Virus genome (UHGV): UHGV-0078062
Reading direction: 5' to 3' (one strand)
Origin: a virus
Length of the DNA stretch: 22,357 nt
How positions within the stretch are numbered: the first letter of the stretch is position 1; each line of letters opens with the position of its first letter. Positions 752 through 4,733 of the stretch are shown one piece after another. The notes beneath the pieces are model-generated. The model was not told the DNA's origin. It saw only the letters and a list, made by a program, of their open reading frames with translations, and searched no databases. Made by a program: the position numbers and the translations under genes.

Positions 752-1215
752 GCAGAGTAACCGCGATTATCTCAGCTCTGGTTATCTGCATCATCGTCTG
801 TCTGTCATGGGCGGTTAATCATTACCGTGATAACGCCATCGCCTACAAAGAGCAGCGCGATAAAAAAGTCAGTGAGCTGAAGCAGGCGACTGCCACCATT
901 ACTGACATGCAGCAGCGCCAGCGTACTGCTGATGCACTCGATGCTAAATACACGAAGGAGTTAGCTGATGCGAAAGCTGAAAATGATGCTCTTCGGCGCA
1001 AGCTTGATAATGGTGGTCGGGTGCTCGTCAAAGGAAAATGCCCTGTGCCATCCTCAGCCGAAACCTCCAGCGCCTCCGGCATGGGCAATGATGCCACCGT
1101 CGAACTCTCTCCAGTTGCTGGACGAAACGTTCTCGGTATCCGGGACGGAATTATCCGCGACCAAACAGCACTGAAAACACTTCAGGAATATATCAGGACG
1201 CAATGCCTTCGATGA
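748..1215 (+). CDS. Rz: Rz-like inner-membrane spanin (i-spanin)
   Basis: ATG 748 overlaps endolysin stop (ATGA); N-terminal TM helix ([20 protein letters not shown]) then charged coiled-coil-like periplasmic region; the ORF-track start at 736 is a GTG upstream of the conserved MSRVTAII start. Confidence 0.8.
968..1174 (+). CDS. Rz1: Rz1-like outer-membrane lipoprotein spanin (o-spanin), embedded in the +1 frame of Rz
   Basis: Lipoprotein signal peptide [19 protein letters not shown] with lipobox, proline-rich mature part ([11 protein letters not shown]); strong SD AAGGAG 9 nt upstream of ATG 968; entirely inside Rz. Confidence 0.8.
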
Positions 1216-1390
1216 TAGCGATAATTTTACTCATCATCCTTCACATCTGGCTCTGTAGACAGGGTGGTGATCACTTCTGGAGTGAATCCAGATTAAACAT
1301 CTCATTGCTGATGCTTGATATTGAGCATCTGGCGCGCGGTAAGGGGCTGCGTTGAGATAAGAGCCAGTCATCACAAACACCAGGATTTAG

Positions 1391-1412
1391 CCTCGCCTTC
1401 GCGGGGTTTTTT
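1391..1412 (+). terminator. Rho-independent terminator-like hairpin after the lysis cassette
   Basis: CCTCGC / loop CTTC / GCGGGG stem (one G-U pair) at 1391-1406 followed by TTTTTT at 1407-1412. Confidence 0.5.
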
Positions 1413-1436
1413 ATTCCCAACTCCATAGGTAATTTT

Positions 1437-1916
1437 ATGACCCAGTATATTGGCGTAAAACTGATTAACGCCTTTCCGATGACGAGACAGGCATATAACG
1501 ATTTTCGTGGCTGGCAGCTTCCTGCCGGAGAAAACGGCGAGGACGAAGGCTATCTGGTTGAATATCTGGATGGCGGAAAACCTAACACCGATCGCTTTGA
1601 TGGCTACGTTAGCTGGAGTCCAAAAGAAGTATTCGAAAAGGCTTATCGTCCGGTATCAGGACTAAGTTTCGGCCTTGCCATGGAAGCGTTAAAACAGGGC
1701 AAAAGTTTGCAGCGGGCAGGATGGAATGGGAAAGACCAGTTTGTTTATCTCGTGAAAGGGGAAAAATTAGCGTCTGCGTTGGGTTATGGCTTTGGCGAAT
1801 ATGTTGGCGAGCCAACTTTCAATGACACGCTTGTATTGAAAAACTCACAGAACCGCCTTGCTACATGGGTTCCATCCATTGGCGACCTGATGGCTGAAGA
1901 CTGGCAAATCATTTAA
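1437..1916 (+). CDS. Hypothetical accessory protein with DUF2829-like (Tad2-like sponge) C-terminal domain and a degenerate N-terminal copy
   Basis: 159-aa ORF; C-terminal half has ALKQGK-x4-R-x-GWNGK...FVYLV...W-x-PS...DLMAEDWQI, a pattern I recall for DUF2829; N-terminal half shows a weaker parallel (RGW...GYLVEY...SWSPKEVFEKAY). Family assignment from memory, not from a search. Confidence 0.65.
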   Translation: MTQYIGVKLINAFPMTRQAYNDFRGWQLPAGENGEDEGYLVEYLDGGKPNTDRFDGYVSWSPKEVFEKAYRPVSGLSFGLAMEALKQGKSLQRAGWNGKDQFVYLVKGEKLASALGYGFGEYVGEPTFNDTLVLKNSQNRLATWVPSIGDLMAEDWQII

Positions 1917-1925
1917 CCATGTAGG

Positions 1926-1961
1926 CATTACAAAGCCTATCTACGGGTGGGCTTGATAATG
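1926..1961 (+). repeat. Copy A of a ~40-nt imperfect intergenic repeat (ATTACAAAGCC...GGGCTTGATAATG) containing a stem-loop and ending in an ATG
   Basis: Shares ATTACAAA-GCC...TAC...GGCTT-GATAATG with copy B at 2534-2573; internal stem AAGCC/GGCTT; terminal ATG (1959) opens a 9-codon mini-ORF (MKPELISGH). Confidence 0.5.
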
Positions 1962-2151
1962 AAACCGGAGTTAATTTCTGGTCACTAATTAACGGCAGTA
2001 CAGCGAAACAACCCAAGCCAGTAAGTGGGGAAATAACACTGGCAGCCACTGAAAGATGAACCTCCTGCCTTATGGCAAAAAAAGATTCTTTGTGGTGGCG
2101 GACTGATGGAAAGACATCCTAATCAAGCAACCACTCCACAGGGTCATAATT

Positions 2152-2532
2152 ATGAACGACCAGCAAATCGAAAAAGAAATCGTTGAGAAAGGCAAAACCG
2201 CTCCGAGAATCACTCCGCAGCACATCGAAGACGTGATTAAAAGCGAGCATTACTTTACTGCTTATGATGGACGTAATGGTGCCATTTCCAGCAACGAATA
2301 TTGTGGCAGGGAAAAACCAGAAGAAGGCGATCGTGATTTATCACCATTGAAGTTGCTCACTTTCTGCGTACTGGTGCTGAAGAATGGCTTCACCGTCACC
2401 GGAGAGAGTGCCTGTGCAAGCCCGGAAAACTTTGATGCAGAAATTGGTCGGAAGATTGCCCGGCAGAATGCTGTAAACAAAATCTGGATGCTCGAAGGTT
2501 ACTTGCTGAAGCAGAAGCTAAGCGAACAGTAG
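2152..2532 (+). CDS. Hypothetical phage accessory protein (possibly N4 gp49 / Sf6 gene 66 family)
   Basis: 126-aa ORF in the lysis-to-terminase slot; motif LTFCVLVLKNGFTVTGESACASPENF...KIW.LEGY resembles what I recall of that family, but the assignment is tentative. Confidence 0.6.
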   Translation: MNDQQIEKEIVEKGKTAPRITPQHIEDVIKSEHYFTAYDGRNGAISSNEYCGREKPEEGDRDLSPLKLLTFCVLVLKNGFTVTGESACASPENFDAEIGRKIARQNAVNKIWMLEGYLLKQKLSEQ

Positions 2533-2635: not shown

Positions 2636-2878
2636 ATGGCAGAGATTATTCCCATGACTGAAGAACAGAAATTCCAGTTAGAGATTTACAAACTGGTCAT
2701 GAACCAGAACGCAGCCGCGGAGGAAGCATTTCAATTCATTGGCACTGACGAACTGAAGCTTGAGCTATTCAAAATTCACTTCCAGTCAGGCGGCGCTAAT
2801 TCAGATATCACGACCCGCACTATCGAAGCGGTGCGTAAATCGAAGGAAGCGTTAGACCTGTTCACTACCGGAGCATAA
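2636..2878 (+). CDS. Hypothetical small helical protein, apparently translationally coupled to the terminase small subunit
   Basis: 80-aa ORF, GGAG SD about 10 nt upstream; stop TAA 2876-2878 is 2 nt before the terS ATG at 2881; no recognisable family. Confidence 0.5.
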   Translation: MAEIIPMTEEQKFQLEIYKLVMNQNAAAEEAFQFIGTDELKLELFKIHFQSGGANSDITTRTIEAVRKSKEALDLFTTGA

Positions 2879-2880
2879 AC

Positions 2881-3321
2881 ATGGCACGCCCAACAAAGTA
2901 TCAAGAGGCGTATGCCGAACAGGCACGCAAACTGTGCTTGCTGGGCTACACAGATGCAGAACTTGCTGATTTCTTTGAAGTCAGTGAGTCAACTATTAAC
3001 AAGTGGAAGCTTGATTATCCTAAGTTTTCGGAGTCCATAAAAAAGGGTAAGGCCGTCGCTGATGCAGAAGTTAGTGATCGTCTTTATCAACGAGCTATGG
3101 GCTTCGTGGCTCCAGACATCGATATTCGTGTTATTGAAAACAGAATTGTCGAAACTCCGCTTGAGAAGTATTACCCGCCTGATACAACCGCTGCCATCTT
3201 CTGGCTTAAGAACAGACAGAAGGATAAATGGCGCGACAAGGTTGATCACGAGCTAACAGGCAAAGACGGCGGCGCAATTCAGATTGAAACATCACCGATG
3301 AGCACTCTATTCGGAAAATGA
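2881..3321 (+). CDS. Terminase small subunit (TerS)
   Basis: 146 aa; N-terminal HTH-like DNA-binding region (CLLGYTDAELADFFEVSESTINKWKLDYPKF) typical of small terminases; GGAG SD 7 nt upstream; overlaps the terL start by 4 nt. Confidence 0.8.
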   Translation: MARPTKYQEAYAEQARKLCLLGYTDAELADFFEVSESTINKWKLDYPKFSESIKKGKAVADAEVSDRLYQRAMGFVAPDIDIRVIENRIVETPLEKYYPPDTTAAIFWLKNRQKDKWRDKVDHELTGKDGGAIQIETSPMSTLFGK

Positions 3322-4733
3322 CCTCGATTAATCCTATCTTTGAACCGTTCATTGAGGCGCATCGCTACAAAGTCGCCAAAGGCGGTCGAGGTAGCGGTAA
3401 GTCATGGGCAATTGCGAGGCTGCTTGTTGAAGCGGCGCGTCGTCAGCCAGTGCGTATTCTCTGCGCTCGTGAACTGCAAAACAGTATCAGCGATTCGGTA
3501 ATCCGGTTGCTTGAAGACACTATCGAGCGTGAAGGGTATTCGGCTGAGTTTGAAATTCAGCGTTCAATGATTCGTCATCTCGGAACGAATGCTGAATTCA
3601 TGTTCTACGGCATAAAAAACAACCCGACGAAGATTAAATCGCTCGAAGGCATTGATATCTGCTGGGTGGAAGAAGCGGAAGCGGTAACAAAGGAATCGTG
3701 GGATATCCTGATCCCAACCATCCGTAAGCCGTTCTCTGAAATATGGGTGAGCTTTAACCCGAAGAACATCCTCGACGATACCTATCAGCGATTCGTCGTA
3801 AACCCTCCTGATGATATTTGTCTGCTGACGGTGAACTACACCGACAACCCGCACTTTCCTGAAGTTCTCCGTCTGGAGATGGAAGAGTGTAAACGCAGAA
3901 ATCCGACACTGTATCGTCACATCTGGCTTGGTGAGCCAGTAAGCGCAAGTGATATGGCAATCATCAAACGTGAATGGCTTGAAGCCGCAACCGATGCGCA
4001 CAAGAAACTCGGATGGAAAGCGAAAGGCGCTGTTGTCTCTGCGCATGACCCGTCAGATACAGGACCAGATGCTAAAGGTTATGCATCGCGTCACGGTTCG
4101 GTAGTTAAGCGCATTGCCGAAGGTCTGCTGATGGACATCAACGAGGGTGCTGACTGGGCTACTTCGCTGGCGATTGAAGACGGCGCTGACCACTACCTGT
4201 GGGATGGTGATGGTGTTGGTGCTGGGCTACGCAGACAGACAACGGAAGCGTTCTCCGGCAAGAAAATCACCGCCACGATGTTCAAGGGCAGCGAATCGCC
4301 ATTCGATGAAGATGCGCCGTATCAGGCCGGAGCATGGTCTGATGAAGTCGTACAGGGCGACAATGTTCGCACTATTGGCGATGTATTCCGCAATAAGCGA
4401 GCGCAATTCTATTACGCGCTGGCTGACAGGCTGTATCTGACATATCGGGCGGTTGTCCACGGTGAGTATGCAGACCCCGACGACATGCTGAGCTTCGACA
4501 AAGAAGCGATAGGCGAGAAGATGCTGGAGAAGCTGTTTGCAGAACTGACGCAGATTCAGCGCAAATTCAATAACAACGGGAAGCTGGAGCTTATGACTAA
4601 GGTTGAAATGAAGCAGAAGCTCGGTATTCCATCTCCTAACCTGGCTGATGCGCTGATGATGTGCATGCATTGCCCGGAGTCGGCTGCGCAACCCGACTAT
4701 TCCAGTTACTCAATTCCTTGTGGTGTAGGTTGA
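3318..4733 (+). CDS. Terminase large subunit (TerL), Sf6 gp2-like
   Basis: 471 aa; Walker A-like KGGRGSGKS near the N-terminus, ATPase then nuclease domain layout; size and sequence match the Sf6-type large terminase as recalled. Confidence 0.95.
   Translation: MTSINPIFEPFIEAHRYKVAKGGRGSGKSWAIARLLVEAARRQPVRILCARELQNSISDSVIRLLEDTIEREGYSAEFEIQRSMIRHLGTNAEFMFYGIKNNPTKIKSLEGIDICWVEEAEAVTKESWDILIPTIRKPFSEIWVSFNPKNILDDTYQRFVVNPPDDICLLTVNYTDNPHFPEVLRLEMEECKRRNPTLYRHIWLGEPVSASDMAIIKREWLEAATDAHKKLGWKAKGAVVSAHDPSDTGPDAKGYASRHGSVVKRIAEGLLMDINEGADWATSLAIEDGADHYLWDGDGVGAGLRRQTTEAFSGKKITATMFKGSESPFDEDAPYQAGAWSDEVVQGDNVRTIGDVFRNKRAQFYYALADRLYLTYRAVVHGEYADPDDMLSFDKEAIGEKMLEKLFAELTQIQRKFNNNGKLELMTKVEMKQKLGIPSPNLADALMMCMHCPESAAQPDYSSYSIPCGVG

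What the first reader, a model, noticed from the sequence alone, without database searches (positions are those of the whole stretch)
1437..1916. Tandem-domain DUF2829-like (Tad2-like) protein in the lysis-packaging moron slot: candidate anti-defence nucleotide sponge
The C-terminal half carries the motif set I associate with DUF2829 (ALKQGK...R.GWNGK...FVYLV...W.PS..DLMAEDWQI), the fold reported for the Thoeris anti-defence sponge Tad2. The N-terminal half shows a degenerate parallel (RGW...GYLVEY...SWSPKEVFEKAY), suggesting an internal duplication, whereas the sponge domain I recall is single-domain and about 90 aa. The gene has its own upstream terminator and a structured element downstream, as expected for an independently acquired accessory gene.
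Basis: partly seen in the sequence, partly recalled or inferred. Interest (0 to 1): 0.7.

Follow-up and report, generated by a model that had tools for sequence, protein, structure and literature searches.

The report
Tad2 immune-signal sponge with unknown partner domain
This prophage gene encodes a clear member of the Tad2 family, phage proteins that soak up a bacterial alarm molecule. It is fused not to a second Tad2 copy but to a widespread, unnamed 73-residue domain that recurs on four different families of such sponges and whose role is unknown.

Summary
The ORF at 1437-1916 (159 aa) is real. Its C-terminal half (residues 75-159) is a Tad2/DUF2829 domain: Pfam PF11195 E 6e-22, and 48% ungapped identity to the crystallised SPO1 Tad2 (E 3e-26). 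The predicted fold matches (TM 0.85-0.92), and the direct gcADPR contacts W25/N26/W73/D79 are conserved as W96/N97/W144/D150.

It is instead a separate, mobile and very conserved domain, found in 1,684 clusters at 50% identity. In the 150 best clusters, 100 fuse it to Tad2, Sequestin, Acb4 or a RyR-like sponge domain. It is homologous to the N-terminal domain of the published RyR Tad (phage CB1 gp68). That domain is a strand-swapped dimer and showed no anti-Thoeris activity on its own.

The gene sits in a ~557-bp cassette absent from phage Sf6, directly upstream of an Acb4-family gene. Phage N4 carries the same gene pair. An upstream terminator is present, but no promoter was found.

Verdict: a Tad2 sponge variant with an uncharacterised companion domain.

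The parts
1370..1926 (+). Accessory-gene cassette absent from phage Sf6. It holds the terminator-like hairpin, the ribosome-binding site and the ORF.
   Evidence: blastn against Sf6: window 1180-1377 and 1926-2700 align and the block between them does not. The junction sequences show imperfect 10-bp repeats, CATCACAAAC (1370-1379) and CATTACAAAG (1927-1936), at the two ends. GC is 47.0%, no different from the flanks.
1389..1416 (+). Intrinsic-terminator-like hairpin (8 pairs, 5 G-C, loop CTTC) followed by TTTTATT
   Evidence: Consensus scan and the sequence itself. It lies inside the cassette, 20-30 nt before the ATG. No sigma-70-like promoter was found on the + strand between it and the gene.
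1427..1430 (+). Shine-Dalgarno-like AGGT, 6 nt before the ATG
   Evidence: Read directly from the sequence.
1437..1916 (+). ORF of 159 aa: N-terminal unnamed domain plus C-terminal Tad2 domain
   Evidence: ORF list. PHROG 872 matches over the full length at E 9e-70. 2,937 homologues were found, many of ~160 aa with the same architecture. The AF2 model has mean pLDDT 87.6.
1437..1655 (+). N-terminal domain (residues 1-73), sponge-associated and of unknown function. Predicted small beta-beta-alpha-beta-beta-alpha fold of SH3/Tudor type.
1659..1913 (+). Tad2 (PF11195/DUF2829) domain, residues 75-159. Predicted 3'cADPR (1''-3' gcADPR) binding residues are W96, N97, W144, S147 and D150.
   Evidence: Pfam E 6e-22. 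8SME/8WJE E 3e-26, 41/85 identical with no gaps. Foldseek against 8wje/8smf gives E 1e-8 and target TM 0.85-0.92. Contact residues come from the SPO1 Tad2 structure paper and were mapped. They are invariant in alignment A1.
2152..2532 (+). Neighbouring gene: Acb4-family (PF13876, Sf6 gene 66 homologue) candidate CBASS-signal sponge. Together with the ORF it forms a two-gene anti-signalling cluster.
   Evidence: Pfam E 3.4e-35. PDB 9E4W 'anti-CBASS 4' at E 0.007. PF13876 equals Acb4 according to Chang et al.. An Acb4 gene lies within 3 kb in 27 of 78 related viral N-Tad2 loci. The same pair is adjacent in phage N4.

Best explanation
The gene encodes a two-module anti-defence protein.

Module 2, residues 75-159 (well supported): a Tad2-family sponge. 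By homology it assembles into a homo-oligomer. It binds the TIR-made Thoeris signal 3'cADPR (1''-3' gcADPR) in pockets lined by W96, N97, W144 and D150. This keeps the signal away from the ThsA effector, so the infected cell is not killed before the phage finishes.

Module 1, residues 1-73 (inferred): a separate, highly conserved small beta-rich domain. It is not a Tad2 copy. By homology to the N-terminal domain of RyR Tad (phage CB1 gp68), it most likely forms a strand-swapped dimer that holds sponge subunits together. Because it also exists as a stand-alone gene and has an unusually conserved surface, it may have a target of its own.

Expression (inferred): the gene arrived as a ~557-bp cassette between the lysis and packaging genes of an Sf6-like prophage, next to an Acb4-family gene. 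It has a terminator in front of it and no visible promoter. It is therefore most likely expressed from the Q-antiterminated late transcript, together with the structural genes.
For: Tad2 module:
- Pfam PF11195, 78 bits, E 6e-22.
- SPO1 Tad2 8SME at E 3e-26, 48% identity over 85 ungapped residues.
- The AF2 model superposes on 8smf/8wje at target TM 0.85-0.92.
- The direct ligand contacts of SPO1 Tad2, W25/N26/W73/D79 plus S76, map to W96/N97/W144/D150/S147. These are invariant across 24 homologues.
- The beta2-beta3 insertion has the same length as in SPO1 Tad2 (ungapped). It is therefore the short type that did not bind cyclic dinucleotides.

N-domain:
- No homology to the Tad2 half.
- 1,684 clusters carry it.
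- In the top 150 clusters the architectures are N-Tad2 48, N-Sequestin 23, Acb4-N-Sequestin 9, N-Acb4 7 and Acb4-N 5, plus one N-RyR and mixed triples. That is 100/150 with a verified sponge family.
- Sequestin = PF21825 and Acb4 = PF13876.
- Homology to CB1 gp68_N. The published gp68 structure shows it is a domain-swapped dimer, and gp68_N alone had no apparent activity in the type I Thoeris plaque assay.
- In the full-length model residues 1-10 are the least confident (pLDDT 65). This is compatible with a strand that needs a partner.

Cassette and expression:
-.
- The same slot is empty in Sf6 and holds Rha in other relatives.
Against: - Nothing here tests binding or phenotype.
- The Tad2 family is functionally diverse: members inhibit Thoeris I, II and IV, CBASS and Pycsar. 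The ligand could therefore differ.
- Residues near the adenine and the bound waters differ from SPO1 Tad2: T78->G149, T65->N136, D67->Q138, H71->A142.
- The dimer role of the N-domain is carried over from a 36%-identical relative. That relative lacks the RGW and DGGKPN loops, which are nearly invariant in this branch.
- A purely structural role fits poorly with stand-alone 68-100-aa genes kept in phage genomes.
- It also fits poorly with the N-domain being more conserved than the sponge domain: 64.7% against 56.2% mean pairwise identity.
- Late expression would be unusual for a sponge. quotes the view that sponges need early expression.
Confidence: 0.68

Rival explanations
1. The N-terminal domain is an independent anti-defence module. 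It would be either a further sponge for a different immune signal or a direct protein inhibitor. The protein would then be a dual-function fusion, like the published Acb4-Tad2 and Acb4-Sequestin fusions.
For: - It follows the same 'guilt by fusion' logic that uncovered Sequestin.
- It is fused to four unrelated sponge families, in N-terminal, internal and C-terminal positions.
- It occurs alone as conserved 68-100-aa genes in the N4-type anti-signalling hotspot and elsewhere.
- 28 of 73 positions are at least 90% conserved across clusters that share no more than 50% identity, including many aromatic and charged residues: K8, R17, Y20, R24, W26, E32, D36, Y39, Y43, D45, N50, Y57, W60, Y70.
- It is small and, by homology, a homodimer, which matches the general traits of sponges listed.
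Against: - The only tested relative (CB1 gp68 residues 1-86) had no apparent activity in the published type I Thoeris assay, while the C-domain alone sufficed.
- The domain is acidic (pI 4.7), whereas known sponge pockets are positively charged.
- No ligand or target can be named.
Confidence: 0.3
2. Tandem duplication. The N half would be an ancient, strongly diverged copy of the Tad2 domain.
For: - There is a loose motif parallel: helix, then RGW/AGW, then YLV strand, then W-x-P-S/SWSP, then helix.
- Foldseek of the N-domain model against 350,542 PDB chains ranks SPO1 Tad2 chains first and second.
Against: - Those Foldseek hits are not significant: E 0.7-1.0, probability 0.21, TM 0.33-0.37, rmsd 6-10 A.
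- The Pfam Tad2 profile does not hit the N half at E<=1.
- hhalign gives probability 0.13-0.20%.
- The order of secondary-structure elements differs: beta-beta-alpha-beta-beta-alpha against alpha-beta-beta-(alpha)-beta-beta-alpha-beta.
- The same N-domain is attached to Sequestin, Acb4 and RyR domains and occurs alone. It is therefore a mobile domain, not a product of duplication within this gene.
Confidence: 0.04
3. The protein is an anti-CRISPR of the AcrIIA7 type, as automatic annotation of phage Huey states.
For: - The homologue in phage Huey is annotated 'anti-CRISPR protein'.
- AcrIIA7 (8KBI, 9KZR) is a DUF2829 protein and matches residues 76-111 at E 4e-6 to 2e-5.
Against: - The match to AcrIIA7 is far weaker than the match to SPO1 Tad2, and covers only the first third of the domain.
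- Li et al. could not reproduce any Cas9 inhibition by AcrIIA7/HgmTad2 and showed that it is a sponge.
- E. coli lacks type II-A CRISPR-Cas (general knowledge).
Confidence: 0.03
4. The Tad2 domain is a sponge, but for another signal: His-ADPR, N7-cADPR, cyclic mononucleotides or a CBASS dinucleotide instead of 3'cADPR.
For: - Tad2 homologues inhibit Thoeris II and IV, Pycsar and CBASS.
- The adenine-side and water-coordinating residues differ from SPO1 Tad2.
- The central part of the domain is hypervariable among close relatives. In phage Huey the N-domain is 95% identical while the Tad2 core is replaced. See also variants P0022, P0038 and P0070.
Against: - The closest characterised relative by a wide margin is SPO1 Tad2, which bound only gcADPR isomers.
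- All four direct contact residues are kept.
- The loop insertion is of the short SPO1 type rather than the 35-41-residue type that binds cyclic dinucleotides.
Confidence: 0.2

Closest known systems
SPO1 Tad2 (Gp34.65; PDB 8SME/8SMF/8SMG, 8WJE), Pfam PF11195 Tad2-like/DUF2829
   Same: Residues 75-159 align without gaps at 48% identity. The predicted fold is the same. W25/N26/W73/S76/D79 are conserved, and the beta2-beta3 insertion is the same short length.
   Different: SPO1 Tad2 is an 89-aa single-domain protein of a Bacillus myovirus. This protein is 159 aa, with an extra 73-residue N-terminal domain attached directly to helix alpha1, the helix that interlocks the Tad2 tetramer. T78, T65, D67 and H71 are substituted.
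Phage N4 locus tag EPNV4_gp49 (YP_950527, 'DUF2829 domain-containing protein')
   Same: It has the same two-domain architecture (160 aa) and is 45% identical over the full length. It lies next to an Acb4-family gene.
   Different: N4 is a lytic schitovirus and the pair lies in the N4 anti-signalling hotspot in the order Acb4 then N-Tad2. Here the order is N-Tad2 then Acb4, in the late operon of a temperate Sf6-like phage. I found no experimental data on the N4 protein.
RyR Tad (Pectobacterium phage vB_PatP_CB1 gp68; Fedorova et al., bioRxiv 10.64898/2026.06.04.730250)
   Same: Its N-terminal domain is homologous to the N-domain here (36% identity over 67 residues) and shares the K8, GYLV-Y, Y-SWSP, F and Y core. 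It is likewise placed directly in front of a gcADPR-binding sponge domain.
   Different: The C-terminal sponge domain is an all-helical RyR repeat (PF02026), not Tad2. The CB1 branch of the N-domain lacks the RGW and DGGKPN loops that are nearly invariant in this branch.
Published sponge-sponge fusions (Acb4-Tad2 of Pasteurella phage Pm86; Tad2-Sequestin; Acb4-Sequestin of Pseudomonas phages YH6 and Ab09)
   Same: A small phage protein built from two independently folding modules, one of which is a signal sponge, encoded in an anti-defence hotspot.
   Different: In those fusions both modules have demonstrated ligands. Here the second module has no known ligand, and its only tested relative was inactive.
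DUF1653 (PDB 3BE3) and CarD/Mfd-RID/Tudor-like small beta-barrels

Membership tests
Tad2 / PF11195 (DUF2829) sponge family | Match to the family profile above the curated threshold | tested here: met
   78.3 bits against a cut-off of 25, E 6.3e-22, profile positions 2-73 of 73.
Tad2 / PF11195 (DUF2829) sponge family | Sequence homology to a biochemically and structurally characterised member | tested here: met
   8SME/8WJE SPO1 Tad2 at E 3e-26, 41/85 identical with no gaps. Myroides odoratus Tad2 (PDB 9EIB 'ModTad2', 8V3E) at E 2e-18.
Tad2 / PF11195 (DUF2829) sponge family | Tad2 fold (alpha1 followed by an antiparallel sheet, with alpha2 and alpha3 in loops) | tested here: met
   AF2 model at pLDDT 87.6. 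Foldseek against 8wje/8smf/8sme gives E 1e-8 to 1e-6 and target TM 0.81-0.93.
Tad2 / PF11195 (DUF2829) sponge family | Conserved gcADPR-contacting residues (SPO1 W25, N26, W73, D79; S76 via water) | tested here: met
   They map to W96, N97, W144, D150 and S147, all invariant in 24 homologues. The peripheral residues T78, T65, D67 and H71 are not conserved.
Tad2 / PF11195 (DUF2829) sponge family | Homotetramer with pockets at protomer interfaces | not testable with these tools
   Only monomer prediction is available. SEC-MALS or a multimer model is needed.
Tad2 / PF11195 (DUF2829) sponge family | Binds and sequesters a TIR-derived signal; relieves Thoeris defence | not testable with these tools
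   Requires binding assays and plaque assays.
Internally duplicated (tandem) Tad2 | Both halves detectably homologous to the Tad2 domain or to each other | tested here: not met
   [not shown]
Sponge-associated N-terminal domain (as in RyR Tad gp68 residues 1-~66; unnamed, not in Pfam) | Sequence homology to the gp68 N-terminal domain | tested here: met
   BLASTP gives 36% identity over 67 residues, pairwise E 1e-6. The shared invariant core is K8, G38, L40, V41, Y43, Y57, S59-W60-S61-P62 and Y70.
Sponge-associated N-terminal domain (as in RyR Tad gp68 residues 1-~66; unnamed, not in Pfam) | Strand-swapped homodimer (beta1 donated to the partner's sheet) | not testable with these tools
   Reported for gp68. 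Here there is only a monomer model. Low confidence for residues 1-10 in the full-length model is compatible with it but is not a test.
AcrIIA7-type anti-CRISPR | Close homology to AcrIIA7, and Cas9 inhibition | tested here: inconclusive
   Only a partial match: residues 76-111 at E 4e-6 to 8KBI. The Acr activity of AcrIIA7 itself was not reproducible. The phenotype cannot be tested here.
Phage moron (autonomous accessory transcription unit) | Insertion relative to close relatives | tested here: met
   Block 1370-1926 is absent from Sf6 and is flanked by an imperfect 10-bp repeat. The slot is variable among relatives.
Phage moron (autonomous accessory transcription unit) | Own promoter upstream and terminator downstream | tested here: not met
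   No + strand promoter-like site lies between 1100 and 1437. The terminator-like hairpin lies upstream of the gene, not downstream. This is a simple consensus scan, so a weak or non-sigma-70 promoter is not excluded.

The most novel reading that the evidence does not exclude
The 73-residue N-terminal domain is a previously unrecognised family of phage counter-defence modules with its own target. That target could be an immune signal not yet known to be sponged, or a defence protein. The domain travels as a cassette with Tad2, Sequestin, Acb4 and RyR sponges and also works alone. It could also serve as bait for finding further anti-defence domains among its ~40 unassigned fusion partners.
Probability: 0.3. 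Interest if true: 0.8.

Novelty: new variant of a known kind. Interest (0 to 1): 0.5.

Why it matters
Sponges that sequester immune signals are a main way phages defeat Thoeris, CBASS and Pycsar, and new families have recently been found by looking at what known sponges are fused to.

This gene shows that E. coli Sf6-like prophages (45 of 5,426 complete genomes) and the model phage N4 carry a Tad2 sponge permanently joined to a domain in no curated library. That domain is more conserved than the sponge itself. It recurs on four structurally unrelated sponge families in at least 1,684 protein clusters.

If the domain only dimerises, it is a general assembly handle for sponges, and it would explain how different sponge folds are combined. 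If it has its own target, it is a new anti-defence family. Either outcome can be tested with a handful of constructs.

Tried and rejected
- **Named family for the N-domain.** Searched Pfam, NCBIfam, PHROGs and PDB, by single sequence and by profile. Only PHROGs of unknown function matched (872, 9467, 32732, 18865).
- **Lockin, TadIV-1 and Tad3-8 as identities for the N-domain.**
  - Lockin is a curved beta-rich hexamer that its authors could not find in INPHARED phage genomes. TadIV-1 is a two-helix dimer of T4-like phages. Neither description fits.
However, Fedorova et al. list Tad3 as known while calling gp68_N a fold of unknown function.
- **RNA element.** An Rfam scan of the whole window found nothing near the gene.
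- **Downstream 'structured element'.** z -1.99 only, and shared with Sf6.
- **Compositional anomaly of the cassette.** None.
- **Search of a sponge paper's supplements for the SWSP and YLVEY motifs.** The aim was to see whether a two-domain Tad2 had been tested. No occurrence in the text held.
- **A word-indexed protein search seeded with CB1 gp68_N.** It returned only six stand-alone relatives.
- **One preprint (10.64898/2026.08.10.743972) on phage N4 and Acb4.** It could not be opened.

Full report
**The object and its setting**

The window is the late region of an Sf6/P22-like (Lederbergvirus-type) prophage. In order it holds:
- a holin (73-276), an endolysin (248-751) and an Rz-like spanin (736-1215);
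- a 50-aa gene-65-like ORF (1203-1355);
- the ORF in question (1437-1916);
- a PF13876 gene (2152-2532) and a DUF2560 gene (2636-2878);
- the small and large terminase genes (2881-4733), then the head, tail and tailspike genes;
- an O-antigen-type acyltransferase, an integrase and a truncated tRNA at the window end.

Megablast finds the ORF region at 95-99% identity in Escherichia phages Huey, IME10, HZ41 and Kapi1. It also finds it in 45 of 5,426 complete E. coli genomes, always on the chromosome, where RefSeq names it 'DUF2829 domain-containing protein'.

**Checking the observation**

The C-terminal half matches Pfam PF11195 'Tad2-like' over the whole profile (78.3 bits, cut-off 25, E 6e-22).

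Against solved structures the best matches are the two SPO1 Tad2 constructs (8WJE, 8SME) at E 3e-26. Residues 75-159 align to the whole SPO1 protein without a gap, with 41/85 identical. The AlphaFold2 model (pLDDT 87.6) superposes on SPO1 Tad2 chains at target TM 0.81-0.93.

The SPO1 Tad2 structure paper names these ligand residues:
- W25, W73, N26 and D79 as the main contacts of 1''-3' gcADPR;
- S76, D67 and H71 as coordinating waters;
- T78, I63 and T65 as touching the adenine.

Mapping through the ungapped alignment:

| SPO1 Tad2 | This protein | Status |
|---|---|---|
| W25 | W96 | conserved |
| N26 | N97 | conserved |
| W73 | W144 | conserved |
| S76 | S147 | conserved |
| D79 | D150 | conserved |
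| T78 | G149 | changed |
| T65 | N136 | changed |
| D67 | Q138 | changed |
| H71 | A142 | changed |
| I63 | L134 | changed |

The five conserved residues are invariant in 24 homologues. The insertion between beta2 and beta3 has the SPO1 length. It is not the 35-41-residue insertion that gives HgmTad2 and SptTad2 a second pocket for cyclic dinucleotides. Membership of the C-terminal half in the Tad2 family is therefore met on every feature that can be tested in silico.

**The N-terminal half is not a second Tad2 domain**

- The Pfam Tad2 profile does not hit it even at E<=1.
- BLASTP of one half against the other gives E 1.8.
- hhalign of profiles of the two halves gives probability 0.13% with 24 sequences and 0.20% with 251 against 136 domain sequences.
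- Modelled alone, the domain is very confident (pLDDT 93.7). Its element order is beta(2-5), beta(9-14), alpha(17-24), beta(38-43), beta(57-62), alpha(63-69). That differs from Tad2, which has alpha1 followed by beta1-beta5 with two loop helices.
The scores (E 0.7-1.0, TM 0.33-0.37, rmsd 6-10 A) are what chance gives. I record it as an unexplained hint, not as evidence.

**What the N-terminal half is**

A full HMMER scan of 1.84 billion cluster representatives with residues 1-74 finds 1,684 clusters at E<=1e-3 and 882 at E<=1e-10. The domain sits at the N-terminus, in the middle or at the C-terminus of proteins of 70-370 aa.

Pfam on the 150 best clusters shows only three recurrent partners: Tad2-like (52), PF21825 crAss001_48 (37) and PF13876 Phage_gp49_66 (22). 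The literature identifies both of the latter as verified sponge families:
- PF13876 is Acb4, a 3'3'-cGAMP sponge (Chang et al.).
- PF21825 is Sequestin, a 3'cADPR sponge that was itself discovered because it is fused to Tad2 and Acb4 (Tal et al.).

My own domain-order census of the same 150 clusters:

| Architecture | Clusters |
|---|---|
| N-Tad2 | 48 |
| N-Sequestin | 23 |
| Acb4-N-Sequestin | 9 |
| N-Acb4 | 7 |
| Acb4-N | 5 |
| Triple combinations | 6 |
| Tad2-N | 1 |
| N-RyR | 1 |
| Domain alone (some are truncated ORFs) | 10 |
| With unassigned extensions | 40 |

The fourth partner emerged from the literature. Fedorova et al. (2026) describe 'RyR Tad', gp68 of Pectobacterium phage CB1, as a gcADPR sponge. 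Its C-terminal RyR-like domain does the binding. [quoted passage not shown]

I fetched gp68. Its N-terminal domain is homologous to the N-domain here: 36% identity over 67 residues, pairwise E 1e-6. The shared invariant core is K8, G38, L40, V41, Y43, Y57, SWSP and Y70.

In that paper gp68 residues 1-86 'had no apparent activity' in the type I Thoeris plaque assay. In the crystal structure the N-domain forms a domain-swapped dimer, donating beta1 to the partner's five-stranded sheet. The coordinates are not in the PDB copy available here: neither a sequence search nor a profile search finds them.

**Inferences about the N-domain's role**

The published structure makes a dimerising, assembly-stabilising role the default explanation, and I adopt it. 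Three observations do not fit a purely structural handle:
1. The domain is kept as a stand-alone gene. Proteins of 68-77 aa lie in CB1-like phages at the same position after the primase, with no sponge domain attached. Proteins of 94-118 aa occur in the main branch.
2. It is more conserved than the sponge it accompanies: 64.7% against 56.2% mean pairwise identity, and higher in 76% of pairs. In phage Huey the N-domain is 95% identical while the core of the Tad2 domain has been replaced.
3. In the main branch, 28 of 73 positions are at least 90% conserved across clusters that share no more than 50% identity. These include the loops R24-G25-W26, E32...D36 and D45-G-G-x-x-N50, which the tested CB1 branch lacks.

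The negative result for gp68_N therefore need not apply here. Against a classical sponge role, the domain is acidic (pI 4.7), whereas known sponge pockets are basic. I put about 0.3 on an autonomous anti-defence function.

**The cassette and its expression**

Compared with Sf6, the window has an extra block at about 1370-1926. The block is flanked by CATCACAAAC and CATTACAAAG. It contains a terminator-like hairpin (1389-1408 plus T-run), the ribosome-binding site and the ORF.

Other relatives carry a Rha gene in this slot.

No sigma-70-like promoter is found in front of the gene, and the hairpin ends 28 nt before the ATG. The simplest reading is expression by readthrough of the Q-antiterminated late transcript. 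This is an inference. The scan is crude, and late timing would be unusual for a sponge.

The 235-nt stretch downstream folds only slightly better than shuffles (z -1.99). It is shared with Sf6, so it is not a feature of the cassette. GC content is unremarkable.

**Neighbourhood**

The next gene (2152-2532; Sf6 gene 66 homologue) is an Acb4-family member: Pfam E 3e-35, PDB 9E4W E 0.007. The locus is therefore a two-gene anti-signalling cluster.

The same pair is adjacent in phage N4, in the order Acb4 then N-Tad2. The N4 protein is 160 aa and 45% identical to this one. In the 80 closest IMG/VR loci, 78 encode N-Tad2, and 27 of those have an Acb4 gene within 3 kb.

**Comparison with what is known, and novelty**

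- The C-terminal domain is a new member of a known family.
- The two-domain architecture is common: about 120 listed clusters of ~160 aa, plus N4. The databases annotate it only as DUF2829. In the papers I could read, it is not discussed, and none reports a test of this subfamily.
- The N-domain has been mentioned once, for a divergent relative, without a family description.
- In what I could search, its systematic association with four sponge families, its scale and its conservation are not described.
- I rate the whole as a new variant of a known kind, of moderate interest. The Tad2 call is ordinary. The companion domain is a concrete, testable lead.

**Limits**

- Nothing here tests ligand binding, oligomeric state or phenotype.
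- The Tad2 family is functionally diverse, so the ligand assignment rests on closeness to SPO1 Tad2.
Identity of the N-domain with one of those is excluded only indirectly.

Noticed in passing
window 2152-2532 (+): The gene after the finding (Sf6 gene 66 homologue) belongs to PF13876, now known as the Acb4 family of CBASS-signal sponges. Automatic annotation in phage Huey calls it 'anti-CRISPR protein'.
   Followed up: partly
proteins P0137, P0163, P0171/P0194, P0233, P0239, P0241, P0245, P0146: About 40 of the 150 best N-domain clusters carry extensions of at least 40 aa that match none of the four sponge families. Some are frameshift debris. Others look like folded domains (one pair recurs). 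They could be further unknown anti-defence modules, so the N-domain could serve as fusion bait.
   Followed up: partly
L001 2638-3138 (phage Huey) against window 1437-1916: Intragenic mosaicism. The N-domain and both ends of the Tad2 domain are ~95% identical, but the central ~50 residues of the Tad2 domain (the beta2-beta4 region) are replaced by unrelated sequence. Variants P0022, P0038 and P0070 show deletions or insertions at the same place.
   Followed up: partly
L004 2609-3462 (phage N4, tags EPNV4_gp48 and gp49): The model phage N4 encodes an Acb4-family protein immediately followed by an N-domain-Tad2 protein, 45% identical to the one here. The RefSeq tag numbering is offset from the Pfam name 'N4 Gp49' used for the Acb4 family.
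   Followed up: partly
L005-L008 3001-3216: In CB1-like N4-type phages from metagenomes, the N-domain is a stand-alone 71-aa gene between the primase and the Sak4-like gene, followed by ~190 bp with no called gene. It sits where CB1 itself has the N-RyR fusion.
   Followed up: partly
window 1917-2151 and 2061-2082 (-): The intergenic stretch is conserved with Sf6. It has modest predicted structure (z -1.99) and a terminator-like hairpin on the minus strand. Its function is unknown. Phage Huey has a 37-aa ORF annotated here.
   Followed up: no
window 19741-20739 (-), 20984-22177 (-), 22306-22357 (-): An Acyl_transf_3 gene (probably O-antigen acetylation, as with oac of Sf6), a tyrosine integrase and a tRNA gene cut by the window end. 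This is the prophage's conversion and attachment end.
   Followed up: partly
window 2636-2878 (+): A DUF2560 protein (Sf6 gene 67 homologue) lies between the Acb4 gene and the small terminase gene. Its function is unknown, but it sits in the same accessory region.
   Followed up: no
[not shown]
   Followed up: partly
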